Shown one piece after another: positions 11,575-44,954 of a DNA stretch of 64,000 nt. The DNA comes from Lytechinus pictus. Taxonomy: Eukaryota. The position numbers and the translations under genes are program-made. The notes under the pieces were generated by a model, which saw only the letters and a list, made by a program, of their open reading frames with translations, was not told the origin of the DNA and ran no database searches. Position 1 is the stretch's first letter, and every line of letters starts with the position of its first letter. The stretch lies in assembly GCF_037042905.1 (NCBI RefSeq), contig NC_087245.1, forward strand, positions 34,350,001 to 34,414,000, read 5' to 3'.

Positions 11575-11621
11575 TCATAAGTTGCTTTTCCAACGGAACT
11601 TCTCATCTGATGCCACCCTCA
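11575..11621 (-). CDS. LACTB2: LACTB2 exon 7 (last coding exon, (V)RVASDEKFRWKSNL*)
   Basis: Acceptor ttaactag; phase 1 matches exon 6; TGA at 11577-11575. Total CDS 870 nt = 289 aa plus stop. Confidence 0.85.
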
Positions 11622-11954: not shown

Positions 11955-12036
11955 CAATCTTTCCTTCTTTCTGTAATTTCTCTAGATGATGTGAGACATT
12001 CCTTGCAGCAGCAGGGTGAAGGATCTCTGGTGTTTC
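11955..12036 (-). CDS. LACTB2: LACTB2 exon 6 (ETPEILHPAAARNVSHHLEKLQKEGKI)
   Basis: 82 nt, AG/GTAAG flanks; HL-KL-KEGKI resembles the LACTB2 C-terminal domain. Confidence 0.9.
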
Positions 12037-19604: not shown

Positions 19605-19829
19605 GGTGTAGATGATCTTGACCAGATCCATGGCATCCATGTCTTTACCATCGTGTTCCCGAAGGACCGCACTGATCTGGCTCTCCCGCAGGTTACGATG
19701 GTCAATGTACATCTGGAGCTTGGGCACGGCGTCATCCACTATGGGACCATGGCCAGGGTAAAGCCGAGAGGGGTTGATGGAGACGAGCAATTCCAGCGAT
19801 TTCATGTATGTATACAGGTCCTCGAACAC
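19605..19829 (-). CDS. LACTB2: LACTB2 exon 5 (VFEDLYTYMKSL...LYPGHGP...KIIYT)
   Basis: 225 nt, phase 0/0, AG/GTAAG flanks; MBL motif PGHG. Confidence 0.95.
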
Positions 19830-20756: not shown

Positions 20757-20859
20757 AGCTGTGCCTTCTCCCAACACACAATCACCAGTAAAGACAGCAT
20801 TCTCCTCCTCTAGTACTAACACCATATGGTCATCAGTATGGCCGGGTGTGTAGACAACC
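20757..20859 (-). CDS. LACTB2: LACTB2 exon 4 ((R)[34 protein letters not shown])
   Basis: 103 nt, AG/GTAAGT flanks; MBL motifs TPGHT and GD. Confidence 0.95.
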
Positions 20860-23172: not shown

Positions 23173-24403
23173 AACCAGCAGGTTCGAAGCGCTGTATGAC
23201 GTGTGCTGCACCGTACATGATCGGTCCATCGCCCCGACCTGGTGACTAGCTCGCATTGTACCGACGACCATCACGTCAAACAATGATGATCACTTGCATA
23301 GCTCTCCCCGTAACCAATGGGAAATATCATGATCTCCCAACTAAAGATGGTTCCAAGATCGGGATAAATCAACATTTAGATGATTTCCAGAATTGGGACA
23401 TTTTCCCAAGGTCGTGTCGATTTGGACTTTGACCAATGATACGAAGTACCTGACTTCAAAGGAGGTTTTCGGCTAGCAAGCTACCAGACAGATAACTTGT
23501 TGTAAAGAACAATGAGAGGAATATCAGAAACTCTTTAGAATTGAGATCGGAAATACAGACATTACTTTTTTTTTAAGATGACTGAACAGTTGATTGATGG
23601 TATTGAGAAGAGTTATTTTAAATTTGGACCCTGGTGAGATTGTAAGATGTAGGATTGTAGAGTTTTGAGCTAGAGATTAGTTGAAGATCTAGGCTCATGT
23701 TTGAAGATGTAGAAGATTTTTTAAATGTGATCACAAAATGTATTCAGAGATATTATGGTGTGAAGAAAAATTCTATAAAGACGGATCAATACAGGGTCCT
23801 TTTAAAGGAATTTTTGGCAGAGTTACAATTGTGAAAAGAAACGAAACAAAGTTAAAGGTTTAATTGAGATTTTTGAAGGGTGTTGTTATTATAGATGAAA
23901 GTGTGATACACTAAGATGTTGAAGATTAGTTTTTACTGATTAGATCAGTGCAGGATCCTTTCAGGGATATTGTATTCAGAGACAGGTTGAGTTTGATATT
24001 ACAAATTGGATCAATACATGATCCTTGGGTTTTCTTTTAATTGTGAACCGGTGAATCAGAGTGATAGGTTGACATCACTTTATCGTTTGGCTGTGTTAAT
24101 ACTATTTTTTCCACCAAATTGAACTTCAAAGAGAAATGTTTTGATATTGGAATTTTTGTATACTGAAATGAATTGTAAATTGTGATTTGGTACACACTGA
24201 GTTTATCTGACTTTTATTAGAGTCCAACCATGTGACAATCAGATAAATATAACAACAAAAAAGGTGAATGGTCACTTGATAATACAAAAACTTGGAGAGT
24301 ATGAATTAAACTTGGATTTGGGTCAACTTGAGGGAACTGAAAGCTCATAGATAATTCATATCCTGAGCCACACAAGACAATGCATAGATACAGGGATACT
24401 CAC

Positions 24404-24530
24404 CTCAATGTAGCGCCCTCTGTTGTGACCTTCTCTCCATCTTGAAGGTAGTTGTATGTGAGCTTATCTCCATTGATTGTTTCTGCTTGATATGGGTGGC
24501 GAGGCAGCTTTGAAACCTTGACATTATTCT
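24404..24530 (-). CDS. LACTB2: LACTB2 exon 3 ((E)NNVKVSKLPRHPY...YLQDGEKVTTEGATL)
   Basis: 127 nt, CAG/GTGAGT flanks, phases consistent with neighbours. Confidence 0.95.
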
Positions 24531-25223
24531 CTGAATAACACAAATAAAAGAATCAAATATTCAAGCAGAAATCTTGCATCACATTGTTTTACAAGTTGTT
24601 CAAATTCATGGATCATTTTGTACCATTAAGAAAGATTTCATCATAATTGCATTTGAATTTTCAAACTCCATTCAAATTGTAAAACCAACCCTCAACATTC
24701 ATAAATATGAGTAAATTCATAGAAAGCTGAAAATATATATTTTTAAAGTATATATTCTACTGCACCACCGGTACACATGTATATTTTTCCTGGTGCCTCA
24801 TTTGATAAAATCTTGCAAAACTTTGCCATTATGGACACTATCACTAAACATTAAAAAAATGAAAAGCTATGTAGCAAGATATTGAAAGAAATTCAATTCA
24901 ATTCACTTTATTCACATCCATTAAAAAATATACAACATACAATATTATATGAACAATAAGAAACAATCAAATTTGATCAATATGATCATGCTTGAAAATA
25001 ATTATTTTCTGTTACTTACTAATTTGCTTTATTATATTCTTATATATCTTTTATATTTATTAACTCTTTATTCATTCATTCTTTTCCATTATCTATTTTT
25101 ATAATCTCACTTCCTTTTATTTCATTTATATTTATATTTTTTTGGTGGAGGGGGGGGGGGCAGCCCTCTCCCTTTCAACACCAGGGCTTAACTTGGTAGG
25201 ATAAAAAGAAGTTGGCAGCTCAC

Positions 25224-25387
25224 CTAACTGAAGTTCTTGAAAGATATCATCAATGCCACCTACATGATCGTGATGCCAATGAGTTAGAAGAATCTCTTGT
25301 ATTGACGTCCCATTCTCAGCCAGAGTATTCCTCAGATTCTTGAGAAATTCAGGTTTGTTTTCTTCACCAGTGTCGATCAACACTCTC
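25224..25387 (-). CDS. LACTB2: LACTB2 exon 2 (RVLIDTGE...ILLTHWHHDHVGG...LQL)
   Basis: 164 nt, TAG/GTGAG flanks; metal-binding HxHxDH motif THWHHDH. Confidence 0.95.
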
Positions 25388-25563
25388 CTATAGACAAACA
25401 CACAGAAATGCAATTCAAAGAGAAAGTTAATCAAAACTGAATTACCTGGTAGGTACAGCACTAGTCTGCAGGCACAGACACTTGGTTTTCGCAATTCGCA
25501 TAATGCAGAGTCTGAAGTAGTAAGACTACAAAGACAGAGGCCATATTCTGAAGTCAGGTTTAA

Positions 25564-26167
25564 AGGGATGGTCCAGGCTAGAGATATTTATATCTCAATA
25601 AATAGAGTAAAATTCACAAAGCATAATGCTGAAAATTTGATCAAAATTGGATAACTAATAACAAAGTTATTGAACTTTAAAGATTTGCATTATTCCGGTG
25701 AAACAGTTCTAGGCAGGTCTTTATGAATATTCATAAGATGTGCCCATGATGTCATATCTCCACTTGTTCTTTGGTATTTCATTATATGAAATTAGGTTTA
25801 TTCAAAATATTTCTACCAAGAACTAAAACAATTGGATTGACCACTGATTAAGTGCATTAGTTATTTATTGTCACAACTTATTCCATCATAATGGAGACAC
25901 ATCATTTACACATGTATGAAAATATGAAACATTTATGATTTCATATAATAACATAAGAAAAGGGAAAGTGGAGATGTGACATCATCAGCCCACCTAATGA
26001 ATATTAATGACAATGTGCATATAACTGTTTTCACAAAATATTTACAAACTTTAAAATTCAATAACTTTGTTATTTGTTATCCGATTTTCATGAAATTTTT
26101 AGCATTTTGCTCTGTGAATTTTACTCTTTTTATTTAGATATAAATATTTTCAGCCTGGACCATCCCT
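25564..26167. mobile_element. ~600-bp MITE with TTAA target duplication (Kolobok-like); copies 30194-30777, 43743-44336, 54412-55607; related families ~27058-27639, ~55705-56299, ~59668-60160
   Basis: TTAA-AGGGATGGTCCAGGCT...AGCCTGGACCATCCCT-TTAA; purine-purine termini with TTAA flanks. Confidence 0.8.
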
Positions 26168-27779
26168 TTAACTTAGACCATGGTCTAACACTGTGCTAAA
26201 ATTATGGGAAGCCAAAAGTGTCAAAATTTTTATTAAAGTTGTATACTGTTTCTTATGTTTACTGTGCTCTTTCCTGATTCATCGATGGTGCAGACAATAA
26301 TCTATTTATACTTCCTACACAATTTTGAATGATTTGAGAGCCAAATGAGGTAAAATATTATCTCTCTACTGTTAGTGGTTTATGTAGCAATTGGCTATCC
26401 ATACTTCAACCACAACTTTAAACCTGAGTTTAAGTTAAACCCGACTTCAGAATACGGGCCATAGCCTTTAGCATCTAGTCTTTACTCTAGACTTGTTATT
26501 GGTTAAAGTGTCAAATATGAGTCTGAGCTAGCAGACTAGTTGAGCACTACAGTCAATACTGCATCTAAAGCCCGGCCCACACTATGCGATTCGTTGCGAC
26601 TCGATTCTTTAATATATATCGCATTTTGCATTAAATGAGAATGTTCCAAGAAGTAAGAATATTTCATTTGAAGTTCGGCATTACAGTGAACATTAGAAAT
26701 ACTGTATGGACCAATGAGTTTCACAAACTCTGGAGTTACCAAATACCGGGTAATAATCCATTCTTCATGAAAGTTCTGGACCTAGAACCACCATGGAAGG
26801 CATTTTATCAACATATTTCATCTAGACAGGTCCACATTTTAGAATATGTAGGCTCACAAAAAGTGCCTTAGGCATTCAATCGATCAGAGGAAATTCAAGG
26901 GTGATGAATTTGAAAAACTTGTTTACCAAACTTGATTTTGATTTCAGCTTTTCCTTAAAGGGCAAGTCCACCCCAGAAAAGGGTAGATTTGAATCAAAAG
27001 AGATATTTTGATGTCTTCATCCTCAAACAACAAAATGCTATTCAGCTTTTCCTTAAAGGGCAAGTCCACCCCAGAAAAGGGTAGATTTGAATCAAAAGAG
27101 ATAAATCAAACAAGAATAATGCTGAAAATTTCACCAATGTCGGATGTAAAATAAGAAAGTTATGACATTTTAAAGTTTTGCTTATTTTTCACAAAACAGT
27201 TATATGCACAACTAAGTGATATACAAATGAGTTGTTGATGTCACTCACTATTTCTTTTGTTTTTTATTGTTTGAATTATACAATATTTCAATTTTCACAG
27301 ATTTTTTTTTACGATAAGGTCCCTATTGGTTGTACCACAAAATGTTCAAACAATTGTAATTCCACATGTTCAGGGAGAAATAAAACCTTGTTTCTCATTA
27401 TAATAAGGAGAAAATTGCAATATTCAATATTTCATATAATAAAATACAAAAGAAATAGAGTGAGTGATGTCAGTCCTATCATTTGCATACCGACCAGGAT
27501 GTGCATATAACTGTTGTGAAATTAAGCGAAACTTTAAAATGACATAACTTTCTTATTTTACATCAGATTTTCAGTGTTATGCTCATTTGATTTTTCTCTT
27601 TTTTTTCAAATCGACTTTTTGTCGGGGTAGACTTGTCCTTTAATATGGACCTGTCTATCAAATCTGGAAAGTTGTCATATATGACATATCTGTTTGGTTT
27701 TCATACGCTCAGGAGCACAGACACCTGACTGTTACTATGGTAACTATCAAATGACAATGACAACCTCTGAGTGCTGATA

Positions 27780-28249
27780 GATTTCAGGTTGTATTGGTCC
27801 CTTGCAGATGACCAAGACTGGAATTGTTTCCTAAAACTCTCCATCTCCATACAACTTACAAGACCAGGTGGGTGTTTCATAAAACTGTTCGTGAGATAAG
27901 AACGACTTTAAGAACGACTGGTGATCCTTTCTTTTGGTAAATGGTATACATATAGGCGATGGTTTAGCGCGTAAGAAAGGATCACCAGTCGTTCTTAAAG
28001 TCGCTCTTAACTTACGAACAGCTTTCTGAAACGGCCCCCTGGTGGGTGTTTCATAAAACTGTTCGTAAGATAAGAACGATTTTAAGAACGACTGGTGATC
28101 CTTTCTTTTGGTAAATGGTATACATATAGGCGATGGTTTAGCGCGTAAGAAAGGATCACCAGTCGTTCTTAAAGTCGCTCTTAACTTACGAACAGCTTTA
28201 TGAAACGGCCTCCTGATACTTGAGATATGCTACAAATATAGACTGACAT
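27780..28249 (-). pseudogene. Decayed third copy of LACTB2 first coding exon (exon 1c), split by a tandem MITE pair
   Basis: MSVYICSISQVS (28249-28214), then two MITEs, then VWRWRVLGNNSSLGHLQGTNTT* (~27855-27785); homologous to exon 1b; stop codon and no matching donor. Confidence 0.8.
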
Positions 28250-29858
28250 TATTGATTGTTTGTTTTTTATTTCTACGTTCAAATAATAAAATATGAAATG
28301 TGACATAATTATGTCATGTGCAATATACAAAATAATCCATAACATAAACAATATAATCATAATACTGTACATTTATGAATACAAAATAAAGATGTGAGCA
28401 TGGACTTGACTTTTTGATAATAATCATAATGGAAGCTGATTACAGCTCAATACAGCCCTACAGTATATTGGTATGCTACACATGGAATAATATGATGGTA
28501 CCATCATCTTGCCAACTTCCTGTTTTAATATCAATAACATATAATCATTTGCAATTTTCACAGATAGGGCTGAATGATCTTAATTGTAGCAATACAGGAA
28601 TTGAAACTGAAAGGGATATTCTATTAAGCTAAAAATAATATGACTTCAAAAAACGAAATGAGAGCAAGTTGAACAACAAGTGGAATGCCTCTGGCTGTCT
28701 CACCTGCATCACGCGATTCAATATAGCAGCAGTGCTGACTTCGAAAACTACTATGAAATAATTATTCACAAAAAACACCATTCATATAATGATACAATAC
28801 TACGTTCATTGACATTTGACCTTGATCATGTGACCTAAAACTTGTCAGTGATACTTGATTACCCCTATATCCACATTTTATACACTATATCTATAAACTT
28901 TGAAAGTTATGACAGCAATCTAATACATGTAATTACCTCAAAATGGCCAAAGTTCAATGACCTTAAATGACCTTTGACTTTGGTCATGTGACCTGAAACT
29001 CGCACAAGATGTTCAGTGATACTTGGTTACTCTTATGTCCACGTCTTATGAACTAGACCAATACACTTACAGAGATATGATGGTAATTCAACAAATACCT
29101 CCAATATGGCCAAAGTTCATTGACCTTAAATGACCTTTGACATTGGTCATGTGACCTGAAACTCAGGCAGAATGTTCAGTAATACTTGATTAACCTTATG
29201 GACAAGTTTCATGAACTAGGTCCATATACTTTCTAAGTTATGCTGTCATTTCAAAAACTTAACCTTAGGTTAAGATTTGGTGTTGACGCCTCCGCCTTCG
29301 CCGCTGCCGTCGGAAAAAGCGGCGCCTATAGTCTCACTCTGCTATGCAGGTGAGACAAAAACATAAACATTTTTGTAAAAGACCAACAGGCCAACAGACT
29401 AACAGGAAAATTTGTCACTAGGTCTCTCCCATACTTTGTTCAGGCATGACAAAAATATTATATAGTGTAAATAAATAAACACATCAATTAAAATATTTTT
29501 TTTATCAAACTTGTATAATGAAACGCCCCATAGTTGTTGAATTCAAAAGTAAGACATGTAGCCCATACTATTCCTTGTATGAAATCTTGATTATTCACTA
29601 TTTATATGTCTACAGAGGAAAATATCTTTCTTGTAACAAAAGAAGTGAAAGCGATGAAAGTTATGATGATTTACATTCATTCTTATTTCTTAAGAACATT
29701 TTAAAGATCTAAACATATTATCTGTTTGCAGAACCTCTGATCCAAATATCACCCACCATGCATTCTTCTGATAGAAACTAAATATTGTACATCCATCAGT
29801 AGATGTACTCTATCTACATCCTACACAATGACCGATTCATAATTTTATGACACAATAC

Positions 29859-29980
29859 CTGTTCCCAGAGCCAACCAGGTAACAATTAGTCCCTTGCAGA
29901 TGACCGAGACTAGCATTGTCTCCCAAAACTCTCCATACAAGTTCAGATACTCGAGACACGTTAGGAATGTATGCAGACAT
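29859..29980 (-). CDS. LACTB2: Candidate alternative LACTB2 first coding exon (exon 1b): MSAYIPNVSRVSELVWRVLGDNASLGHLQGTNCYLVGSGN(R)
   Basis: 122 nt from ATG to AG|GTATTG donor; same length and phase as exon 1a; no stops; 20 of 40 residues identical to exon 1a. Confidence 0.75.
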
Positions 29981-32900
29981 GATTGAAGCTGTTACTAGGC
30001 TGTGTGATGCAGGGCAATCCTATACTGGTTTGCTGGAAATGGAATAATGTGATGGTACCCTTATCTTGTCTAGTCATTTGGATCTTCACCGTAGCTATTT
30101 CATTTGATCCAATAAAGCCAACCCTTTCAGTTTGTGTACATACCATCAGGAAAGTGTTTCACAAAACAAAATGCCAGTGATTCTTACTATTAAAGGGATG
30201 GTCCGGGCTGAAAATATTATATCTAAATAAATAGAGTAAAATTCACAGAGCAAAATGCTGAAAATTTCATCAAATTCAGATTACAAATATGGTAACGAAG
30301 TCATTGAATTTTAATGTTTATCAATATTGTTTTTAAACAGTTGATATGCACATCGTCATGAATATTCATAAGGTGGGCTGATGATGTCATATCCCCACCT
30401 TCCTTTTTCTTATGTTATTACATGAAATCATAATAGTTTAATATTTTCACATGTGTAAATATGTCTCCATTATAATGAAATAAGTTGCGACAATAAATAA
30501 CTAATGCTCTTAATCAGTTGTCAATCCAATTGTTTTAGTTCTTGGTAGAAAATTTTTGAATAAACTTAATTTCACATAATAAAATACAAAAGAACAAGTG
30601 GGGATATGACATCATCAACCCACCTAATGAATATTCATGAAGACATGCCTAGAACGGTTTCACCAGAATAAGGCAAATCTTTAAAATTCAATAACTTTCA
30701 ACAAATTTTCAGCATTTTGCTCTGTGAATTTAACTCTATTTATTGAGATATAAATATCTCCAGCCTGGACCAACCCTTTAAACTAGTTCTTGTAAATTAC
30801 TGAAATCCTTGAATCTGATTGGCTCAGAGTAAATTTGTCAGTGGAAATCACAGATGCTTCATGAAAAACTCTCCAGATGTTTGGATGAGAATTACATTGC
30901 AAGGACATGTGATCACTGACAAAGGAGAAGTTTCCCTTTATTTAGGTTCTTCTCAACTGGTGTATTTTCATCGAACGATGTAAATCATTATGCTGACTGG
31001 GGGCATAACGCCTGAGATTTCCCTGATTTACAACTATTGAGTTATAGTTAAAATTCAATTCTTAAAATGATGATGATCAATGATGATAATGAAAAAAGTG
31101 GTAATGATAAATCAAGGGATTATACATAAATAAAACAATCATGACAATGATTTTGTTAATAACTACGTTAAACGATGATGACAACAACACTAGTTTGTAT
31201 TACTATTGATTAATTCACACACAATAGCGACATCATTTTGTTGATGGTTGCCGAAAGTTAAAGAAACGCATTCGCTCTTATGGATTTTGATTGCATCCAC
31301 TTGCAGATGTTTGAATAGCAAGCGAGAAAGGAATCAGTCTTCAAAATGAACTTGTATTAGCTTTCATTGCGTTGTGTTGTATTTAAATACGTTCGGACAT
31401 TTTGCAACTGAACGCAAGCTAAGAAACACAAATGTGTGGGCCAGGTTTTAAAGAGAAATTAAGTCCAAATATATATAACTTTAAAGGTGAATAGAGTAAA
31501 ATTAAATGTGATAGATTGTTTGGAGAAAAAAGTAGGAATATATGACTGAAAGCGGAAGTGTTTAATTACTTTTTAATGTCTACGTGTAGACCTGTATGCT
31601 AATATTCCAATTACAATCACTGCCTTCTTGCGGAACTCTCACCATAAAGTACAGATGCAGCATTTGATTAGGAGAACAAAAAAAAAAGGAATCGTGCCTT
31701 GATTAAAGAAAGCTAGACAAACATGCAAAATCAACTTCATTACGATGTGAATTGCATTATGCAGAAACTTGGCTTGTGCGAAGCTATATTTACTTGTCAT
31801 TCTGAAACTTCATTTTTTCTACATCAGTCAGATCTTAATCTAATCACTTTTTGAGTTTCAGAAAAGTTAAGTTTGTAAGTGTGCAATTGAGTTTGAAATC
31901 CCTTTGAAAACTTTCATCTCCAAAATGGTATGAAATGATCACCATGAAATAATAATAACAAGTGGAATGCCTCTGGCCGTCTCACTTGCATCACGCGATT
32001 CAATATAGCAGCAGTGCTGATTTTGAAAACTACTATAACTCGCACAAGATGTTCAGTGATACTTGGTTACTCTTATTTCCACGTTTTATGAACTAGACCA
32101 ATACACTTATAGAGATATGATGGCAATTCAACAAATACCCCCAACGTGGCCAAAGTTCTTTGACCTTACATGACCTTTGACCTTGATCATGTGACCTGAA
32201 ACTCGCACAGGATGTTCAGTGATACTTGATTACTATTATGTCCAAGTTTTATGAACTAGACCAACACACTTTCAAATTTATGGCTGTAATTCAACAAATA
32301 CCCCAATTTGGCCAAAGTTCATTGACCCTAAATGACCTTTGACCTTGATCATGTGACCTGAAACTTGCACAGGATGTTCAGTAATACTTGATTACTATTA
32401 AGTCCAAGTTTCATGAATCAGATCCATAAACTTTCAAAGTTATGATGGTAATTCAACAGATACCCCCAATTCGGCCAAAGTTCATTGACCCTAAATGACC
32501 TTTGACCTTGGTCATGTGACGTGAAACTCATGCAGGATGTTCAGTGATACTTGATTAACCTTATGTATAAGTTTCATGAGCTAGGTCCATATATTTTCTA
32601 AGTTATGATGACATTTCAAAAAACTTAACCTTAGGTTAAGATTTTGATGTTGATTCCCCCAACATGGTCTAAGTTCATTGACCCTAAATGACCTTTGACC
32701 TTGGTCATGTGACATGAAACTCAGGCAGGATGTTCAGTAATACTTGATTAACCTTATGGCCAAGTTTCATGAACTAGGTCCATATACTTTGTAAGTTATG
32801 CTGTCATTTCAAAAACTTAACCTCAGGTTAAGATTTGGTGTTGACGCCGCCGCCGCCGTCGCCGTCGGAAAAGCGGCGCCTATAGTCTCACTCTGCTATG

Positions 32901-33419
32901 CAGGTGAGACAAAAATTGGGCTCAGGCTTAGCTCAGCAGGCTCTGAAATTGGATCCTATTTAATTGGAGGATTTTTTTTTTGATAGACAATATATGGAAT
33001 GAATCTACAAAGCCTAAAACAAAAACAAACTCTCTGATTTGTCCTTATTGTCCATCTTATTGGCTGAAAGTTAGATTTTTGTGGGTTGGCTTTCAGTCAC
33101 TCCATAACCTTTGAAGGGAAATCATTCTTCTGAACTCCTTAATGCTAGGCTTACTTTTTATAGCCTAATTATTTCCACTAAGTTCTTCAGTTGGGCTCAT
33201 TTAATTGAGCAACTATGTTAAAACTTGGATCTATTACCAGATTAACAACTAATCACTTTAACAGAATGTCAACCTCTCGTTGCATTGTAACCTCTTTACT
33301 TTTCAATGATAACAATTAACAGTACAAACTACAATGAATTTAGAATACCATGTACCAGCTTCAATTTTCAACAAGGCCTATAACTTTCAAGTCTAATTCA
33401 ATTTATAATAAAAATAATA

Positions 33420-33700
33420 TTAACTGGATTTATATAGCGCTCTTTCCAGAGGATACAAAGTGCCGTTAATGGTATAAGACGAGTTTTATATTGTTTATAG
33501 TTTATACAGGTGTGTTTTAAGATGTTTTTGAAGAGGTCAAGAAAAAAGATGTTGGGAGTCTGTTCCAAAGTCGGGGGGGCAAGAGATTGAAAAGAATTGA
33601 AGCCGGCATGTTGACTGGATTTACGAATGATAAAGGAAGGAGCTGATGTAGAACGAAGAGAGTATATTGATCTTTGTTGCTGAAATAGTGAAGAAACAGT
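33420..33700 (-). mobile_element. Decayed L2-type LINE 3' fragment
   Basis: Frameshifted remnants YSLRS...SFQSLAP/RLWNRLP...HLKTHL and a GCGCTATATAAAT tail. Confidence 0.6.
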
Positions 33701-35309
33701 CATGTCTAGACAGTCTACATCATTGTCTTCAATATTCATTGTAGACTGAAATTGTTGTGAAGTGGTCAACATATTCGGGTTCCAGTTTTTATTTTTCTTC
33801 TCAGATCTATATCTAGGCCTTCATCATCTAGATCTAGCATACATGTATGTCATTCAGGAATCACATTTCCTTGGTCACAGATTTCCACATCAGGACAACA
33901 GTAGCATCTACATGTATGGTCCTAACTTTTGCTGAACATTACTGCTACATCTCACTGAATTGCAGTCTCAGTCAAATTCTTCATTTGGGACTAGATCTAC
34001 ATTTTGTACTAACTTTATAAGTATACTTTTTAAGTCATAATGACATTTAAAATACTTAGCCTTAAGATCTCGCTGCCTCTGCCACCTGCTATGCAGGAGA
34101 GACGAAACACTCATTATAAAGCTATTTCAATTTGTACCCAGATGTATGACTGTATAATTCATATCTAGACATAGGCCTATCCCACCCTCATCCCCAGTGT
34201 TATTTTATGGCTTGTATAGCACTGCCCAGAGAAGAAATCTTCATTCATTGTGTCTAAACCAGAAGTATTAATTCCACAACAATCTTTCTCTATTACACGT
34301 TACTAATAGTCTACATGCATATATACAATAAAGATAAGTCAGACTCAGAGATTTACAATCTTTATTATTAATTGCTAGAGGGTTAGCACATCTCATGATG
34401 GCCATGTTCTTTCTTCCTCAAAATGTACCACCACTGTTGGTATAGTGACGTATTGTATTACCGGACACTATCATGATTCCGGACGCTCATATTACTGCGC
34501 ACGAAAACAATTTCGTACCGTAAGACTTCCACAATTCAATTTCACAGAGCAATACATAGAACAGGATTGCAAAAACAAGGCGAAAAAATCCAACCTTTAC
34601 CTTATTTATCTCTAAAATGACAGAAAATGCTTAAAATATCAAATAACATAGTTTTGCATTAACAATTGATATATTTTCCAACAGAAATATGGGTCTGATC
34701 TGCCGAATTTCAATCTCGTCCGCTCCTTCGATCGAATGATGAGGTGTGGTGTATTGTGGGTGATCGTCGACGGCTAGTTCTCAAGGTACCCGTGCGCAAG
34801 GTTTTCCGTGAGTATATAGAGCCGTCGACGATCGGCAGCGCATCGATAGAACTTGATGAGCGTCACGATACGAACGAGCATAATAGAAAGTTCCATGAAA
34901 CATGCAGCTAACAAGAAAAAATAAAATAAGTTATCAAACACGAATTTATTACCAACATCTGCTCAGAATCGATATAAAAACAGCAAACAAAAACTTAGAA
35001 TTTACTCATGATATGATATAAGAAGAAAAAATCACACAAATTTGTTCTTACATCATTATAATCAAGAATATCTTTACCCGTCCGGCGCGCGTCCGGAATC
35101 ATGATGTAATTTGTCGCAAGTGCGATGCAAAGAAAATGGTTGGTAAATATAAAATAATTTTACCATATTCATAATTTTCATAATATTTGGAATAGCTAGT
35201 GCGAATTTTTCTTGATTGTATTTCCTCTAGTTGTCGGTTTTAAAGGACTGAAATAAAGGTGTCCGGCAATAGGATACACTGCCATACAAATAAACTCAGG
35301 AAATCCGTC

Positions 35310-35680
35310 TTCCTCCCACTCTTTCTTTAATTCATTTTTCTTTTTTCTTTCCCTTTCTAGTTTCTTTTTCTTCTTTCTTAACTTTTTCATTGTATTCATT
35401 CATTAATTCTTTTATTTCATCCTTCTTTTATCTTTTTCATTCTTTATACTTTTTCCTTCTTTTACTTTCTTTCCTTCTTTCATTCATTCTTTATTCCTTC
35501 CCTTTTCTTGCTTTAATTCACTTTTCTTTCTTCCATTTTAGTTCATTTCTTACTTTTTTATTCTTTGTTTATTTTAGACCTTTCTATTTCTTCTTTCTTT
35601 CCTTCTTTCACTATTTTCTATTATTTTTATTTTTTCCCTTTTTCAGATTTCTTTCTTTCTTTCCATCCTTCCTTCCCACT
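35310..35680. repeat. Pyrimidine-rich (TTTC/TTCC) low-complexity tract; similar tract 40343-40625
   Basis: Degenerate tttc/ttcc/ttca repeats. Confidence 0.85.
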
Positions 35681-36512
35681 AGTACCAATGAGGTCAATAC
35701 ATAACAGTAATGACCTCATAGGTGACAATACAGAATATACCGGTTGATGTTTCCTGCACCCAGGGGCCCGTTTCTCAACACATGGACAAGTTAGTCATAT
35801 CTTTATCCACCAACCACGGAGTTAGTTCCAATCTTACTAAACCTGTTTCTCGAAAGGTTTCCTAACTAGAATACCTTGATATCGATACTATCGGTAGAAA
35901 GAGCAGACGAGACGTAGCCTTAGTCACAAAATAGCATAATATTCAAAAAGAAAAATTATGACAAAATTGCAAATATTGTGATAAATTGGGAAATAAATCT
36001 TTTCAAAATAATAGCACAGGTGAATTATGCATCATACATACTTAGACCATGAAGACTTGAGCATTCAATTGCAGAGAAAATTAAATTATGAATAATTCCT
36101 TTCATGACTAAAAAATCACTTGTGGACGTTGAGATTGGGTACCCCCGGGATATCCAATTTTAATAGTTTACGAAAGTAAACCATAACGGTTTTCTTTGTA
36201 AAATGATGATAATTATGCGGTCTTTTACGATTCCGAACGTCATCAAAATACAGTTCAACGAAACATTTTTAACCATTGATACCGAAACATACGATATTTG
36301 ACAAATTATATGCATAAATTAGAGATAGAATTTATCCAACTGTTAATAGGGGTCTGAAAACACCAAATACGAGTTCAGTTATGGATGGCCTGACGTGGTA
36401 GAATATTTATCGATTAAATCATTTTACTATTTCAAAATGAATGGTTTTGTGGCGTTTTACCAATAGTTTTTATAGTTTCTTTGTATTATAATTATCATTG
36501 ATTGCATTAACA

Positions 36513-39406
36513 TAGTGCTGCAAGTCAGGCGCCATGTTCGGGTTCGGCAAGGTTCGGCAGAAATTTGCCGAACATTGGTTCGGTTCGGGGTTCGGTAATG
36601 ATAGACTGATATAAAGCTATAGTTCATTCAGGTATACGTAGCGTACCGGTAGACAATTTGTACTTGATTGACTGCATGTGCTCGCGTGTACCTCTGTCAC
36701 ATCAAACCATTTTATCTCTATCTTGTTGACATGAAACTATGAAAGTTATAGCGCTCAACGAATTGTTATCTCGAATTTGATTATCTGATGACAGATTTAT
36801 TGGGTAACTCACAGTTCTAAAATGGCGACTCTTCCTAGTCGTCCATACCTGGACCACACTTTGGATACTTGCCAAATTAACTACGCTCGTACTCGTACCA
36901 GCTAGCTAGGCCAGAATGTGCAGTCCCCTTGTAGCGGGACTCTGAGCTCATGAATATTTATATATACAGTCCGGCCAAACGTGATTGGCAATTGCATCAC
37001 ATACGAGGCGGCCAGCGCCAGTGCACTGAACTGTAGGCATAGTAGGGCCAGGGGCGTGTCGAAGAAAGCGTGCTTATGTAATGCGCCTTTCGCTAATTGG
37101 CTCGATGGGTGAACTAAACCACCAATCGCATGTCGCTGATTGTCGCATCGGTACATACAGCCCAGTCAGTCCGCAAGCCCCTGTGTTAATGAGCAAATGA
37201 GCAAGATTTATCCAAGTCCTCTCGTGGCTGAATTCATGTCCCTGCAAAATCTCGTGAATTGTGAGACTTTCTTTTTCAAGGAATTTAACCACTTTTTCCT
37301 TGAGTAATATTGATTATTTTTGTACCATGGGCAAGAGTAAATGTTACCCTTTTATATTGGTCATTTCTTTTGAATGAAATATTTTGATAAATAAGTGAAT
37401 TTTTTACCTGAAAAGATGCATCAAACAGAATTTTCTTCCTCTGTTTTCACTTGCAAATTGTGCAACATTTTGTGTTTTAGGCACCAACATTATTTATATC
37501 GTCAGAAAGCTCAAACTCTATACTTTCTTACAATGTCACTCTTGATATGTGGCATCTTTTAGATGGGTCAGCAGCCAGTTATTTCCATCAAGATGCAAGA
37601 CGAGATTTCTGAAATTTCTGAGTAACATAAAATCCAGAGTTCTGATTGGCTGAATACTGTTTTCAAAACAAACAGGCGCGGGTAATTTGAAGAGATTACC
37701 ACATGGTGAGTGTGACCTTGCAGAGGCCCAGTGTGGGGAACATTGGAATTTGCGTGGGTGTGTGGTCTGTATGACCAATCAGAGCGCAGTATTCTTGTTT
37801 TTGAGCTGCAAAATGTACTTGGCCTATGAAAAGCTGGCTGCTGACCCATCTAAAATACATCTTCTTATAAAAATTATATCATATTAAAGCTTAGATCTTC
37901 AGCTTTATCATGATTTAAAAATCATTTGTGCCCAAACAGAAATTAAGTGTGAAAACAACTACTTTTGTTGCATGAAAAAAAATATTTTGTTTCATGTTTT
38001 AGATCAAAAGTTTTTCCTATATTACAACATTCTTTTAAAAATCCAAACACATGACCTAAAAGAATGATTCTTCTTCTTTACAAAGATACCAAAAACATGA
38101 AATTTGGTCAATATTTAGAGCAGCAATGGCCGAATAAAAAGAGGTGTTTTGGTTCGCACCAAGCTCATTAACTATGCAAAAACCCTCTTGTCATGAATAT
38201 CACTTGGATAAAAGAAGCTACTTTTTCAGGGCTTGCGGACTGACAGAGCCACGTGCTTTGTCTGCTCGCGAAACTCAGCTCACTGATTGAAGAGCAATTC
38301 CCGAGATTTCTATGATTTCATTGGTCAGATTTCATTCGACCATGAACATACAGACCAAGTGGGATGCAAAGTTTTACGACTGTAATGGGACAGGGGGAGT
38401 AGAGTGATCATCGAATTGTTTATGGTTAATTTGAGAAGTTGATAAGAAAGGGAAAAAAAGTAAAGATTGGGGGTCATTTTCCCCCAAGAGATGAATGTTT
38501 CCGCATGGCTTTATCTTCATTCAACTTGTCAACGAGGGGAAGGGGATCTTGCTATATGCTATACCGTAATCATTCATGAGTGTTTGATTTTTATTTTCAT
38601 CTGATTGTTAATAATAAAAAAGATAACTTCTCATTTCTATATTATTTGTTTTGCGTCTCTCCTTAACAGTCACTCACTTTATTTCCCACTTTCACTGGAT
38701 CTCTCGTTTTCAAAACTCTTTACTTCTCCCTAAAATCATGAAAACTAGACAGTAGCGAGCCGACACCTCAATAATAATGTCAATCACCTCAATCAGATCT
38801 TTATTCTCCGCCGCAACAATACACGAGTTACGATCTTAATCACATCGTATCGTAATTCGTAATATTAATGGTACTTCATCTTTCACTTTCAGTTTATTGA
38901 GCTCGTTCATTCAAAATACTTTGAAGATTTTCAAACAAGAATCTTGTTCGCCACCTAAAAACAACAATATTTTAGATAATTAGATTTAACCAATTAACAC
39001 TCATACAGTTTTGGTTTTCTTTACCATGCTTCGGCGATTCGGCCACAGAGCGAGAGATGATGAAAGCCAGTAAAATGATTATAGCGCAAGCTCGCGCAAC
39101 GTCATTCATCGGATCTCCTTTCTTAATCAGGGCCGTAAAAACCACAATGTCAACATGAAAATGAAAACAAAGTCTAGTAACCGCAAAATGAGCGCATACT
39201 TCCAACATACAATTGCAAAGAAGATTAAATAGAGAATGCGCAAATATAATGATTAGAAAGGGTGTAAACTTATAAGTTTATTAGCTGAAAGCCGTTTTTT
39301 TTTTTTTTGCCGAACTTCCGAACCAAGTCTTAGTGTTCGGTTCGGTTCTGTTCGGTTCGGAAGTGCCATGTTCGGCGAACTACCGTTCGGTTCGGCTACA
39401 GCACTA
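36513..39406. mobile_element. hAT-like non-autonomous element nested in the Harbinger-like element
   Basis: Termini TAGTGCTG / CAGCACTA, 8-bp flanks CATTAACA / CATTAACC, GTTCG(G) subterminal repeats at both ends. Confidence 0.7.
37163..38246. mobile_element. TIR element with 4-bp flanking duplication (AGCC), nested in the hAT-like element
   Basis: CAGTCAGTCCGCAAGCCC ... GGGCTTGCGGACTGACAG with AGCC on both sides. Confidence 0.65.
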
Positions 39407-40713
39407 CATTAACCCACTTGTTTTGTGATGTAATTTCAACCTCTATGATTGATTACGTAAGATTATAATTTTAAAATTTCTATGCGCTTTTGCATGTCAT
39501 AGTCTACCCACGTGATGCCACTACGTCATTAAGAAAGAAGTTATGACAATGACATGTTCGGAGCTGTCATAAATATTTAGTGAGGTTGTTGTACCCGATC
39601 TTGGTAAAGAGGGCTTCATGAAACGGTTAGCGGACAAGTAGCTCACTATCTCCGATTTAGTCAAGAAGTTAGACTTATGACGGTGTTGAGAAACGGGCCC
39701 CAGGTATTTAGTTATATTACTCATTAAATACGAGTTGTGTGCAGGTCTGTTCCTTTTTCTTTTATCAGAGGGTGAAAATGGACATGTTATTTGGCCAGGA
39801 GGCTCCTAGAGAGTAAAAATCATTTACTAACGTATGCTTAATCTCAACAGAGCCAGGGATTTCTTCCCATTCATCTGCACGTACCGCCAAAAAACCTGAA
39901 ACTTTCGCCCCCAAGATTTCTACTTTCCTTCTAAAAGATCTAGCCCTAAATCATGTAGATGGGATACAACTTCATTTCCGACATTTCTACGATATTGATT
40001 TCATTTTTAACTAAGAATTCATTAAAAAAGCGAGAAAAATGCTTGGCGACAGCACGCAAATCGCGCAATTTATAAAGAACGTGTAGCTGTCTACCGCAAC
40101 AAGGCTTGTCCCAGGAGTTGGGCCAAATTCGTGAGAAAATTGCCGAAATATCATTATCAACAAAAGAACTGGTGAGTACCGATTCAACATTATTAATTTG
40201 TTGAATATTTATAGTCTAGCCAGGCCCATCTATAAAGATTATCACAAATTTTTTGTGATATTCATGCTTAGGTCTCGGCTAGGGCGGCCCAAATTGAGTG
40301 GAGTCCCACTTATTCAACATAAAAGTAGGCGTCTAGCCTAGTGTTCCTTCCTTCGATTTATTTCTTTCCTTCCTTCCTTCTTTCTTTCTTTCATGACTTT
40401 GGTTTCTTTTTCTTTCTTCCTTCCTTCCTTCTTTCTTTCTTCATTAGTTCATTCCTTCCTTTCTTTCTTTCTTATTCTGATTCTTTCTTTCCTTCCTTCC
40501 TTCTTTCTTTCATGACTTTAGTTTCTTTCTTTCTTCATTCTTTCCTTTCTTCTTTCTTTCATGAATTAAGTTTCTTTTTCTTTTATTCATTCCTTTCCTT
40601 CTTCCTTCCTTTCTTTTTCTCTTTCTTAGAATTTGACACAACACAGATTATTAGCGAGTGGGACTACACAGACAAACATGAACGACTTTATTAAAGCGAT
40701 TTTTTAGGCCTAC

Positions 40714-40835
40714 CTTGTACCAGTGCCAACAATGTATGTATTGGTGCCTCGAAGAGTCATAGGTCCAGGGTTACATCCTAAAACTCGAATGATTCGAGCT
40801 GAAAGTCGTTCGATATTTGGAATTACGGTACTCAT
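40714..40835 (-). CDS. LACTB2: LACTB2 exon 1a ([40 protein letters not shown])
   Basis: 122 nt, ATG at 40835, AG|GTAGG donor; [18 protein letters not shown] is the canonical LACTB2 N-terminal motif. Confidence 0.95.
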
Positions 40836-41109
40836 TTTGCCGCAGAAACTGAGATCTTTCTCTGTTCCTCTTGCGCTCTCTCTCCAGTTTCACGCATTTT
40901 CTCGGTGTAAAAATCTCGTTTTACAAAATACAACCACATTACTAGTGTAGGCGCCATACAGTAGAGATATCTGCGAAGATTTCCGGTTTGTTTTGTCTTG
41001 ACTTGATTAAGCTGATAATCATACTGTTCTTTACATTGCAATCGCCGTTGATTACCAATCGATGTGAATTTGTCATGTTTTTCAGATCTGTCTCTGGACC
41101 ACGGCAAAG
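40836..41109. promoter_or_regulatory. Divergent intergenic / bidirectional promoter region between LACTB2 and STK3/4
   Basis: Only 274 bp separate the two oppositely oriented start codons; locally CpG-richer than the surrounding DNA. Confidence 0.6.
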
Positions 41110-41123
41110 ATGACTTCAACAAG
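41110..41123 (+). CDS. STK3: Hippo/MST kinase coding exon 1 (MTST-S)
   Basis: AAAG-ATG context, AG|GTAAAA donor, phase 2 matches the next exon. Confidence 0.65.
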
Positions 41124-41751
41124 GTAAAATGATATTTATTGGAGCAAGGATCGGGTAATATGTGTGACGTGTTTTGTAGAAATGAACAAGATTTCATATA
41201 CCGGTAGGTACCACACACAGATTTGTATATGTGGGCACAGGTTTCAAAAGTGGATTCGGCCTAGCTTAGAAACAACAACCACAACGACTAGATCTAGTCC
41301 ACTCTTTTTAATTCTCACCAATAAATCATAAAATGTAATATCTTCAAATGAGAGAAAACATATTTAAATTAACAAAACAGCCATATTTGTTCGGTTAGAC
41401 AACACTCAGTTGACGACATCGCGACATGGTTGATAATTGATTTTTATAAACGAATAGGGCCTATTCGTTTAGCGATTGATAATTGAAGCCATTTTTAAAT
41501 TATTATTTTGATTGTTCATCATGTTCATGTATTTCAAGACTTTTATTTTAATTTTGTTTTCAATTTGCCTTAGAAAATGTTACGATACTTTGTATGAAAA
41601 CTTTATAATATATGTAACTTGCATGTTTGTAAAATTGATTACAATTCTGCCTTTGGCTGCGATGATCTTTTATTAATAAACTATTTTATCGATCCTATCT
41701 ATCTATAACAGTATCATTATCTCATGTCAAAAATCCTTCTCTCTTGTGTAG

Positions 41752-41832
41752 TATGTTGAAGAGACTAAGTGAAGATGCACTCACTAAGGAGCCTGAAGAG
41801 GTGTTTGATCTCCTAGAGAAATTGGGAGAAGG
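41752..41832 (+). CDS. STK3: Hippo/MST kinase exon 2 (MLKRLSEDALTKEPEEVFDLLEKLGEG)
   Basis: 81 nt, TAG/GTGAGT; typical MST1/2 N-terminus. Probably the single co-orthologue of STK3 and STK4. Confidence 0.95.
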
Positions 41833-43397
41833 GTGAGTAAAGTGTCTTACTTTGGATCCTAGGGCCGATTGCCCAAAAGGGTCTTTGCAAGAATTGCCTC
41901 TCGCGTCGCCCATTTATTATGCGCCATGTGAAACGCATTTTAAATAAAATACCTGCAAACATATTTTATTTGTCGTTTAACAAAATCTTTCTTTATAAAA
42001 TGATGTGATATCTCTTGAAATTGTATTAAAAAATGATTTAAAAGCTAGCTGAATTTTTTTTATTTGTTTATCTTAAATTTCAGGAACATCCTGCATATAG
42101 CTTATCATAAAAGATGGGTGACACGAAAGACAGTCCTTGGAAAGACCCTTTTGTGCAATCGGCCCCCATCTACTTCTAACAACGTGTTACAATTTAATTA
42201 AGCTTTATAAATGGAGCATTGCAAGAAAATGTTGAATAGAAAATTGTTTGATTAAAATGTTAAAGTAACAAAATATTAATGCTATTGATTTATTATTTTG
42301 AAATAAGACATATGTTTAACTACAACTTAATCGATGACTTGAATATGAAAAGCCAATGATGAGTTGTGTTCAAACATTTTTTATTGAACCAGAGATGAGT
42401 TTGGAGTAATAATCTTATTACCAATAAATATTGTCATTACAGAAACTACTGTTGGGTCTCTATTACTGGAAATAATGTCACTCTTTATATGATGAAACCC
42501 TACCAAAAAAAAACTCATCGACTTTATTTTTGTCATTTTATACTTGTTATATGTGTTGTGTAACTGTGGCAAACACGTTTCTCTATTAAAGCTAAGGCCC
42601 CAACCTAGTATAACACTCCTAAGGTCACTCTTCCCTTGTCTCCTATGATGTTCCAGTTGAAATCAAATCTCAAAAGGTCTCCTAAAATAAACAAATATAA
42701 ATGAAGGAGGAAACACACAAAGTAACACAGATCTTTACAATTGATATCAATGACATCGTTGGCTGTACTTCAAAATCTCACCTGTGCCAATGCAACCAAA
42801 TCATTGATTAATTCAATCAATTAGATGTAAGGAAATCATTGTGGTCAACCAAATACACTCTAACTGCTATTGATCAAGAACCAATGGAAGCATGGAAGGA
42901 TGGTCATAACTCATGAGATAGTTCTGCATATTAATAAGTACTATACAATGTTAACATAAAAACTATACAATGGATAAACTAGGAAGCATGACCAAGGGGA
43001 CATTGAATGAGAGAATGGAATGCAGTGAACCTGGTGAAATTCTGTTGCTATGTCAGGGATATAATGTATGTGGATCGTATTGATTCGATGAAGGATGAGG
43101 TCATTATATGGAATATTAATTAACAAATTAGATGTAAACATTGAAGTCTGGAAAGCAAAATGTTAAGGCAGGTAGTGAATAAATCCAGAAAATTTGACTT
43201 GCACTAGATGCCTATGAAAATGGCACCAAGGCTTGTGAATAGGGGATCAGCAACCATTTTCGTCACATGTAGATGACCTTCAATTCATTTTTAGGCCCCC
43301 AAAATAGATAATGATCAATAATCACTTCAGCAATTCGTTGCATATTGAAAAGTCGTAAAATAAGTTATTTTCTAATGTTTTTTTTTTCCTTTCCCAG

Positions 43398-43578
43398 TTC
43401 CTATGGAAGTGTATACAAGGCAATGCACAAGGAGTCTGGTCAGGTCTTGGCCATCAAGCAAGTACCGGTAGATACAGACCTACAAGAAATCATCAAAGAA
43501 ATCTCAATCATGCAGCAATGTGACAGCACTTACGTTGTCAAGTACTATGGAAGCTACTTCAAGAACACAGACCTCTGG
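43398..43578 (+). CDS. STK3: Hippo/MST kinase exon 3 (SYGSVYKA...LAIKQVPV...YFKNTDLW)
   Basis: 181 nt, CAG/GT; Gly loop and catalytic Lys (AIK). Confidence 0.95.
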
Positions 43579-44954
43579 GTATTTATACAAAATTTCATCA
43601 CATTTTATTCTTCTTTTTTTTCTACATTGTCTCAGACTTATAGACCCATATTCTGAACTTGGGTTTGATTTAAACACTGGACTGGTCTAAAGTTGTGGTT
43701 TGATTATTGAGAGCCATTTATGTCACATAAACCTTTTAATAAAGGAATGGTCCGGGCTGAAAATATATCTAAATAAATAGAGTAAAGTTCAAAGAGCAAA
43801 ATGCTGAAAATTTTATCAAAATCGGATAATAAATAATGAAGATATTGAATTTTAAAGTTTATCAATATTTTGTGAAAACAGTTATATGCACATCATCATG
43901 AATATTCATTAGGGGGGCTGTTGATGTCACATCTTCACTTTCCTTTTTCATATGTTATTACATGAAATCATAAATGTTTCATTTTTCATACATGTATAAA
44001 TGATGTGTCTCCATTATGATGAAAAAAGTTGCGACAATAGATAACTAATGCATTAAATCAGTTGTCAATCCAATTGTTTTAGTTCTTGGTAGAAAATTTT
44101 TGAATAAACCTAATTTCTTATAATAAAATACGAAAGAACAAGTTGGGATATGACATCATCAGCCCTATCTAATGAATATTCATAAAGACATGCCTAGAAC
44201 TGTTTCACCTGAATAATGCAAATCTTTAAATATTCAATAACTTTGTTATCCGATTTTGATCAAATTTTCAGCATTTTGCTTTGTGAATTTTACTCTATTT
44301 ATTGAGATATGAATATCTCCAGCCTGGACCATCCCTTTAAAATTATAGCTCAATTTATCAACTCATTGCAATTCAAATCATTCTTAAATGTGTAGAAGTA
44401 ATGAAAAGACAGTTGTCTCTACCATTAAAGATTGAGGAAAGAGAGCAGTAAACGTAAAGAAAAACTATATCTGCAAAATGTGTAAATTTTTGGCTTCCCA
44501 TAATTCATGCACTGAGGTAGACCAGGGTACAAATTAAACTGGGTTTCCGAATATGAGCTAAAGAGTTTTTTTTTTTTTTTTAATGTTTTTATTGAACAAA
44601 TCAAAACAAATCACAAACAATCACAAGCAATCAAAGCATTTACAAAATATTGTATCATTAAACAACAAAAAAAGAGAGGAAAAAAAAAAAAAAAAGGCAG
44701 CCTTTTTATATCCAATCTTACATCAGCTCTAATCAGAGCCAAAGAGTTACGTTTATGAGGGTAATTTTTTTTCAAATTAAAGAAGAAATACATGAGGAAT
44801 CATTTGGATCATTTAGAGGCTATTAATTTCATTTGAATCTAAAAAAATGACTTTTATGTACATCAGTATTTTGTGTACCTTTATAATCATATCAAGTTAT
44901 ATGATAAGTTGTTCATGTTTCGCCAACAATACCTCAAGGATAATCATAGGCAGA

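What the first reader, a model, noticed from the sequence alone, without database searches (positions are those of the whole stretch)
29859..29990. Intact, diverged duplicate first coding exon: LACTB2 may have two swappable N-termini
Seen: inside the 15-kb intron 1 lies a 122-nt ATG-to-donor segment with the same length and splice phase as exon 1a and no stop. It has 20/40 identical residues concentrated in the core (IPN, RVLG-N, L-GTN-Y-VG-G), while the conserved loop CNPGPMT is replaced by DNASLGH. A CAG acceptor sits 8 nt upstream of its ATG, so including both 1a and 1b would add 130 nt and shift the frame. Known: human LACTB2 is a mitochondrial MBL-fold endoribonuclease, and this N-terminal segment is part of the fold. 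Inference: an old exon duplication kept under selection, giving a mutually exclusive isoform with an altered loop or altered targeting on a shared catalytic body.
Basis: partly seen in the sequence, partly recalled or inferred. Interest (0 to 1): 0.85.

Follow-up and report, generated by a model that had tools for sequence, protein, structure and literature searches.

The report
Sea urchin LACTB2 swappable first exons
Sea urchins make their single LACTB2 enzyme with two or three interchangeable front ends, and the alternative one, conserved between urchin genera, replaces an otherwise near-invariant loop beside the active site and the likely mitochondrial address, so one gene may yield enzymes with different substrates or locations.

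Summary
Confirmed. Exon 1b (29980-29859, minus strand) is a real alternative first coding exon of the only LACTB2 locus found in this sea urchin genome. The isoform is already in automatic RefSeq annotation: identical in Lytechinus pictus, 39/40 in L. variegatus, 34/40 in Strongylocentrotus purpuratus, which also has a third N-terminus. Contigs from two probable RNA runs stop matching at the 1b donor. One shows the geometry of a 1b-to-exon-2 junction, although no junction was listed directly. Both read through the CAG at -8, so 1b is probably promoter-driven rather than spliced in. 1b keeps the fold (TM 0.94 to human LACTB2) and the core residues, but fixes D21, G26, H27 and C33, seen in 0 of 187 canonical homologues. 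It also loses N-terminal positive charge. A decayed copy of 1b lies 2 kb downstream. Best reading: an old exon duplication that swaps the loop next to the zinc site, and probably the targeting, on a shared catalytic body. Function is untested. The kind is known (N-terminal tandem-exon substitution); I found no paper on this case. The scan noted the same layout earlier in an unrelated potassium-channel gene.

The parts
40714..40835 (-). Exon 1a coding part, canonical N-terminus (40 codons + 2 nt), in a CpG-rich region (o/e 1.06) head-to-head with an STK3/4-like kinase gene
   Evidence: antisense reads upstream
29859..29980 (-). Exon 1b coding part, alternative N-terminus (40 codons + 2 nt)
   Evidence: contigs X1 record 1 and X4 record 10
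29981..30073 (-). Minimum 5' UTR of 1b, contiguous with the genome, no ATG inside; CpG-poor region (o/e 0.28). The true start is not mapped
   Evidence: (X1 record 1, 0 differences)
30190..30783 (.). Inverted-repeat element (MITE-like, repeated in the window) just upstream of the 1b leader; it bounds the unique promoter stretch to about 120 nt unless the element contributes
27793..28511 (-). Decayed duplicate of 1b ('1c'): UTR copy 28511-28425, start-codon piece 28255-28215, a 174-nt x2 repeat insertion 28215-27867, loop piece 27844-27793 (46/52 nt identical to 1b); the end of the exon and its donor are missing
25224..25387 (-). Shared exon 2 (motif I Asp46 and HxHxDH motif II)
   Evidence: X4 record 9
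24404..24530 (-). Shared exon 3
20757..20859 (-). Shared exon 4 (His145, Asp164)
19605..19829 (-). Shared exon 5 (His199; His216, Arg217, Arg220)
11955..12036 (-). Shared exon 6 (winged-helix region)
11575..11621 (-). Shared last coding exon, ending in Ser-Asn-Leu, a PTS1-like tripeptide
   Evidence: PMC8919083 passage lists SNL as predicted PTS1 of zebrafish Lactb2

Best explanation
The first coding exon of LACTB2 was duplicated in tandem in an echinoid ancestor. The copy (1b) has its own promoter and 5' UTR inside intron 1 and splices to the common exon 2. Each transcript therefore carries one 40-residue module: strands 1-3 of the metallo-beta-lactamase sandwich plus the loop 21-29 that ends at Gly30 beside zinc ligand His199. 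After a burst of change the 1b module was fixed and kept under purifying selection. It keeps the structural residues and replaces the loop, so the same di-zinc site most likely works under a different lid and prefers different substrates. The module is also the uncleaved putative mitochondrial signal, and 1b has lost its net positive charge, so a shift to cytosol or peroxisome may come with it. Shown: exon anatomy, single locus, cross-species conservation, transcription up to the donor, retained fold. Inferred: own promoter, regulated use, changed substrate, changed location. I put the existence of an expressed, selected isoform at about 0.93; the confidence below is for the loop-function mechanism.
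For: RefSeq isoforms with the 1b N-terminus on an unchanged body exist in L. pictus (XP_054755530, matches the window exon for exon), L. variegatus (XP_041470073, 39/40) and S. purpuratus (XP_011667293, 34/40). Between genera the body is 89.8% identical, 1a 37/40 and 1b 34/40. In a neutral simulation P(>=34/40, no stop) is 0.004 at 0.2 and 0.0002 at 0.3 substitutions per site (the distance is assumed, not measured). One locus in the genome: 7 of 7 matches to a full-length query lie in the window. Run X4: the 1b contig has 27 unaligned letters on the exon-2 side, and the exon-2 contig begins at 25389, the AG shared by 1a and 1b. That is the 30-nt overlap expected of a spliced fork with 31-letter words. 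Depths add up: 1b 22.8 + 1a about 28 against 49.8 shared. Run X1: contig 29858-30073 with 0 differences. 1b residues D21, G26, H27 and C33 occur in 0 of 187 canonical homologues and A23 in 1 of 187, yet are the same in all three urchins. The 1b branch has 12-16 unique changes against 2-5 for 1a across six outgroups. Models of both isoforms have the same strands; the 1b model matches human 4AD9 at TM 0.94. The Gly30 carbonyl supports His199 (PMC4770246 section 20). Net charge of residues 1-27 is 0, 0 and -1 in 1b, against +2 or more in 178 of 187 canonical proteins.
Against: No 29859-to-25387 joint was listed; the joint table was filled by repeats (765 rows not shown), so the junction is inferred from contig geometry and RefSeq models. 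X1 and X4 are only guessed to be RNA, although a unique intron bin had depth 0.69 and 0. In the two raw RNA runs 1b is minor: depth at most 4.7 and 1.5, against about 28 and 17 for 1a. Contig depth is a poor measure of expression. No coordinates were available, so loop-to-zinc distances were not measured. The loop is the least confident stretch in both models (pLDDT 61 in 1b, 73 in 1a). None of the nine mutations in PMC4770246 section 23 touches residues 1-40, so the loop's role is untested. Position 25 differs in all three species (L, H, P). No activity, localisation or peptide data.
Confidence: 0.55

Rival explanations
1. Targeting switch: what selection keeps is the loss of the uncleaved mitochondrial signal. 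1a goes to mitochondria, 1b stays in the cytosol or follows the shared C-terminal SNL to peroxisomes, and the loop change is secondary.
For: Human residues 1-27 are the predicted, uncleaved targeting signal (PMC4770246 passages). LACTB2 is also found in peroxisome proteomes and zebrafish SNL is a predicted PTS1 (PMC8919083 passage). Both alternative urchin types lose Arg14 (177 of 187) and net positive charge.
Against: Changes such as P23A, T27H and T33C do not alter charge, yet are fixed in three species. Fungal homologues with long N-terminal extensions keep Arg14 and Arg17, so these arginines may be structural. Myc-tagged rat LACTB2 stayed cytosolic. No targeting predictor was run.
Confidence: 0.2
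2. Expression-only subdivision: 1b gives LACTB2 a second, regulated promoter free of the bidirectional promoter it shares with the kinase gene. The peptide only has to fold, and both proteins do the same job.
For: 1a lies in a CpG-rich region head-to-head with an STK3/4-like gene; 1b lies in a CpG-poor region. The apparent 1b share differs between runs: about 45% in X4, 23% in X1, at most 14% and 8% in X21 and X23.
Against: A new promoter does not need a new coding exon with five near-invariant positions replaced and then held constant between genera. S. purpuratus keeps a third, equally distinct version.
Confidence: 0.13
3. 1b makes an inactive or weak isoform that acts as a binder or decoy, because the new loop disturbs the Gly30-His199 support or blocks the site.
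For: The loop has lower confidence and loses two predicted beta-bridges in the 1b model. His27 is a new potential metal or substrate contact (inference).
Against: All seven zinc ligands are on the shared exons, and Leu28, Gly30, Thr31 and Asn32 are kept.
Confidence: 0.09
4. 1b is a pseudo-exon with leaky transcription that annotation pipelines picked up.
For: Low depth in two raw RNA runs. The neighbouring copy 1c shows that such duplicates arise and decay here.
Against: 34/40 identity, same length and phase between genera; simulation; contrast with 1c, which has insertions and no donor.
Confidence: 0.03

Closest known systems
RefSeq isoforms of sea urchin LACTB2-like (XP_054755530, XP_041470073.1, XP_011667293.2; third type XP_003724707.2)
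   Same: Exactly this exon and isoform, present as automatic predictions.
   Different: They carry no comment on homology of the exons, the loop or function. No paper in the searched library holds both 'sea urchin' and 'LACTB2'.
N-terminal tandem exon duplication-derived substitutions (39 human cases; protocadherin and UDP-glucuronosyltransferase clusters, PLEC, KCNAB1; PMC8373072)
   Same: Homologous first coding exons, alternative promoters, one shared body, conserved across species.
   Different: 'lactb2' occurs 0 times in that paper's main text (its supplementary table was not seen). Here the module is only 40 residues and supplies core strands, an active-site loop and the putative import signal at once.
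Human LACTB2 (PDB 4AD9; PMC4770246)
   Same: 54% identity, TM 0.94, all zinc ligands, winged-helix tail.
   Different: No homologous alternative N-terminus among the non-urchin proteins inspected. The canonical loop is replaced in 1b.
Fungal metallo-beta-lactamase-type thioesterases (AptB type; PMC5591372) and the L3 flap of subclass B1 beta-lactamases
   Same: The listed ligands His153, Asp172, His207 have the same spacing (19, 35) as His145, Asp164, His199. 1b residues 8-166 align to positions 8-159 of the subclass B1 profile, and the model aligns to BcII from its first strand. That 21-29 equals the L3 flap, and that this flap shapes specificity, is recalled knowledge.
   Different: No evidence that 1b acts on thioesters or beta-lactams; scores are far below family cut-offs.

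Membership tests
LACTB2 | MBL motifs I-V (D46, H77, H79, D81, H82, H145, D164, H199) | tested here: met
   All invariant in the 69-sequence alignment led by the 1b isoform
LACTB2 | MBL fold plus C-terminal winged-helix domain | tested here: met
   PF00753 and PF17778 above cut-off; TM 0.94 and Z 38.4 (rmsd 1.9, 288 aligned) to 4AD9
LACTB2 | Canonical N-terminal loop with Pro23 and Thr27 (186 of 187 each) | tested here: not met
   1b has Ala23 and His27 in three species; met by the 1a isoform of the same gene
LACTB2 | Uncleaved N-terminal mitochondrial signal | tested here: inconclusive
   Only net charge computed: 0 to -1 in 1b, +2 in 1a; no predictor or localisation
LACTB2 | Single-stranded RNA endonuclease activity | not testable with these tools
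   His216, Arg217 and Arg220 lie on shared exon 5; activity needs an assay
N-terminal tandem exon duplication-derived substitution | Homologous coding exons in tandem within one gene | tested here: met
N-terminal tandem exon duplication-derived substitution | Each exon joins the same downstream exon in separate transcripts | tested here: met
   RefSeq isoform pairs in three species and fork geometry in X4; the junction letters themselves were not displayed
N-terminal tandem exon duplication-derived substitution | Alternative promoter use | tested here: inconclusive
   At least 93 nt of contiguous leader; contigs cannot show a start, and an upstream non-coding exon is not excluded
N-terminal tandem exon duplication-derived substitution | Conservation across species | tested here: met
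   39/40 and 34/40; not listed among 3 Diadema proteins
Mutually exclusive internal exons (strict sense) | Both exons are entered through a splice acceptor from a common upstream exon | tested here: inconclusive
   Two contigs read through the CAGs at 29989 and 30000; a weak TAG at 30070 near the X1 contig end remains possible
Fungal MBL-type thioesterase | Hydrolyses an ACP-bound polyketide thioester for a partner synthase | not testable with these tools
   Only ligand spacing compared; no partner or expression link found

The most novel reading that the evidence does not exclude
The 1b isoform has changed enzyme class: with the new loop and His27 beside the di-zinc site it is a small-molecule hydrolase or thioesterase outside mitochondria, for example for acyl-CoA in peroxisomes or for release of echinoid polyketide pigment precursors, while 1a stays a mitochondrial RNase. 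One gene would then switch between an RNase and a metabolic hydrolase by promoter choice alone, with a third version in S. purpuratus.
Probability: 0.13. Interest if true: 0.82.

Novelty: new member of a known kind. Interest (0 to 1): 0.5.

Why it matters
LACTB2's true substrate and home are unsettled: it is reported as a mitochondrial RNase, appears in peroxisome proteomes, and a tagged rat form was cytosolic. Its first 27 residues cannot be deleted without losing solubility. The urchin gene offers natural, selected replacements of exactly this segment on an identical body. Comparing two or three isoforms therefore tests directly what the loop does and how an uncleaved signal embedded in a fold is read. 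The intron also shows exon birth and death side by side: 1a, 1b, the decayed 1c and the S. purpuratus third type. The architecture itself is a known kind and the isoform is already in databases, which caps the surprise.

Tried and rejected
Search with the 1b peptide against longer proteins: 0 of 5 candidates scored. This is explained by 90% clustering, which hides 1b isoforms behind 1a representatives. Search of 1.84 billion representatives: 14 hits, 11 canonical-type LACTB2 N-termini and 3 repeat-driven false matches; none with the 1b loop. Clustering makes this weak evidence of absence. No RNA holder on record was listed in the run search; not used as evidence. The joint table was swamped by repeats. 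A degenerate 1b pattern found 0 matches in metagenome contigs. An intact orthologue of the S. purpuratus third exon was not found in the window or genome; 1c was rejected as that orthologue because its loop is of the 1b type. Horizontal origin of 1b: the loop resembles bacterial MBL hydrolases such as 2ZWR, but identical length, phase and start context with 1a favour duplication. Pigment-cell link: 0 papers; supplements of PMC7455242, PMC8683087 and PMC10396339 gave 0 hits, but only 15.7, 8.6 and 68 thousand characters were held, so the large gene tables were probably not seen. A paper on the urchin polyketide synthase was not held. dN/dS could not be computed: no DNA of orthologous exons was available. 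No complex prediction was run, since no binding claim is made.

Full report
Observation. The segment is as described. On the minus strand 29980-29859 is a 122-nt ATG-to-donor segment without a stop, the same length and phase as exon 1a at 40835-40714, and 20 of 40 residues are identical. Nucleotide matches by codon position are 23, 27 and 15 of 40, and only 9 of 20 same-residue codons are identical, which fits an old coding duplicate. The CAG at -8 would shift the frame, but a CAG ending at 30000 would add 141 nt in frame with no stop through exon 2.

The gene. Six shared exons follow (25387 to 11575) and match RefSeq protein XP_054755530.2 of Lytechinus pictus exon for exon. All 7 matches to a full-length query in the 812-Mb genome lie in this window, and the 1b peptide finds 3 places: 1b, 1a and a decayed copy. 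So 1b has no other body to belong to.

Other species. Cluster look-ups showed that the isoform is already predicted in RefSeq. The 1b peptide is 39/40 identical in L. variegatus and 34/40 in S. purpuratus; between the genera 1a is 37/40 and the body 89.8%. Under neutral substitution such conservation has probability 0.035 at 0.15, 0.004 at 0.2 and 0.0002 at 0.3 changes per site, but 0.21 at 0.1 (5000 runs each, no indels). The true neutral distance was not measured; I recall it as well above 0.2. S. purpuratus has a third N-terminus (XP_003724707.2), 23/40 to 1a and 22/40 to 1b, with no intact counterpart here. The three Diadema proteins and the starfish, brittle star, sea cucumber, crinoid and hemichordate proteins listed have canonical-type loops. 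Of 56 further cluster members from vertebrates and arthropods, 37 had an exon-1 motif and all 37 were canonical; 19 lacked it. Annotation may simply miss such exons elsewhere.

Transcription. Four runs were laid on 24200-41400; 4 of the 23 listed. Repeats filled the joint table and no 1b junction was displayed. In X4 (organism B, 5 differences in 148 nt) a 202-nt contig covers 29858-30005 without gaps and has 27 unaligned letters on the exon-2 side. The exon-2 contig begins at 25389, the AG shared by the ends of 1a and 1b. These lengths give the 30-nt overlap expected where two first exons merge in a graph of 31-letter words. Depths add up (22.8 + about 28 against 49.8). In X1 (organism A) a contig matches 29858-30073 with no difference and leaves the genome at the donor. 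Both contigs read through the CAGs at -8 and -19, so 1b has its own leader of at least 93 nt. X1 and X4 are only guessed to be RNA, but a unique intron bin had depth 0.69 and 0. In raw runs X21 and X23 the 1b bin has sense-strand reads only, at most 4.7 and 1.5 deep against about 28 and 17 for 1a. Use seems to vary between samples, but contig depth is a poor measure. Exon 1a lies in a CpG-rich stretch (o/e 1.06) head-to-head with an STK3/4-like kinase gene; 1b lies in a CpG-poor stretch (0.28).

What the exon changes. I compared residues 1-40 with 187 canonical homologues: 206 proteins stored, minus 7 alternative isoforms, 4 excluded rows and 8 without the anchor motif; the set is redundant and rich in vertebrates. 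1b keeps all 10 positions invariant in that set, though several are invariant by construction of the anchor. It has D21, G26, H27 and C33 (0 of 187 each), A23 (1), W16 (2) and L14 (6), all identical in three urchins. Relative-rate counts give 12-16 changes unique to 1b against 2-5 unique to 1a. AlphaFold models of both isoforms have the same strands (8-10, 15-19, 31-36); the block 21-30 has pLDDT 61 in 1b and 73 in 1a. The 1b model matches human LACTB2 at TM 0.94. In the human structure residues 1-27 give the first two strands and are the predicted, uncleaved mitochondrial signal, and the Gly30 carbonyl supports zinc ligand His199 (PMC4770246; passages and sections 20 and 23 read). The swapped loop thus ends at the active site. 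Profile and structure alignments place it in the region of the subclass B1 flap; that equivalence and the flap's role are recalled, not measured. Net charge of residues 1-27 is +2 in 1a, +2 or more in 178 of 187 homologues, and 0 to -1 in 1b and the third type. The shared C-terminus is SNL, a predicted peroxisomal signal in zebrafish; LACTB2 has been seen in peroxisome proteomes, though tagged rat protein stayed cytosolic (PMC8919083, passage).

Age and turnover. On a 40-column tree the 1a exons of Lytechinus, Strongylocentrotus and Diadema form a clade (98/99) that excludes 1b and the third type. Arg29 is shared by all echinoid 1a, while 16 of 16 outgroups and 1b have Gln. A duplication after the Diadema split is rejected at p-AU 0.02; a single echinoid clade is not rejected (0.09). 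The groups were named after seeing the tree and long branches are involved, so this is only a hint that the duplication is older than that split. The copy 1c (28511-27793) repeats the 1b leader and loop but is split by an AT-rich insertion and a 174-nt double repeat, and lacks the exon end and donor. It shows what an unselected copy looks like.

Mechanism and rivals. Shown: anatomy, single locus, conservation, transcription to the donor, retained fold. Inferred: own promoter, changed substrate, changed location. I favour a functional loop swap (0.55) over a pure targeting switch (0.2), a pure expression split (0.13), an inactive isoform (0.09) or a pseudo-exon (0.03). The first two can both hold.

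Relation to known systems. This is an N-terminal tandem-exon substitution, a class with 39 curated human cases (PMC8373072, passages; supplementary table not seen). Searches for 'sea urchin' with 'LACTB2' or 'beta-lactamase-like' gave 0 papers, as did 'LACTB2' with 'thioesterase' and 'polyketide'; none of the 15 papers listed holds 'LACTB2'. Subscription journals are mostly not covered. PMC4819959 and PMC5591372 were read as passages.

Verdict. Real, conserved and expressed; a new member of a known kind, already present in automatic annotation but apparently undescribed. Interest 0.5, because it offers a natural test of LACTB2's substrate and targeting. The boldest reading, a promoter-driven switch from RNase to metabolic hydrolase, has probability about 0.13.

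Noticed in passing
window 47226-48113 (+): The 3' part of a kinase exon of the STK3/4 (Hippo)-like gene, with its donor, is repeated in tandem 7.4 times (119-nt unit, 94% match). The first copy is part of the intact exon; of the next six, three keep the frame and three are frameshifted, and the last is partial. Spacers are too short to be introns. Recent amplification or assembly artefact.
   Followed up: partly
window 40846-46500 (+): An STK3/4-like kinase gene starts head-to-head with LACTB2 exon 1a; opposite-strand reads appear just upstream of 1a, suggesting a bidirectional promoter. The family name rests on recalled motifs.
   Followed up: partly
window 27793-28511 (-): Decayed duplicate of exon 1b. 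Its start piece shares Ile8 and Gln10 with S. purpuratus 1b and its loop shares Leu25 with this genome's 1b.
   Followed up: yes
P0042 (S. purpuratus XP_003724707.2): A third homologous N-terminus with its own loop, sharing Trp16 and Cys33 with 1b; apparently absent from this genome.
   Followed up: partly
P0057/P0061 and P0060/P0070: A crinoid and a hemichordate each have two LACTB2 proteins on equally long contigs with different loop residues: possibly whole-gene duplication reaching a similar end.
   Followed up: no
window 11955-11900 (-); P0001, P0037, P0038: L. variegatus models end by reading through the last intron and lack the SNL tail; an annotation artefact or a second C-terminus.
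   Followed up: no
window about 500-4300 (-): GC-rich stretch whose translated snippets look like a Pao/BEL-type retrotransposon (label recalled).
   Followed up: no
window 17826-18209, 28810-29361, 32037-32915: A 163-nt tandem repeat family with very deep, almost single-strand RNA coverage in the raw runs (up to about 3100), probably from copies elsewhere.
   Followed up: no
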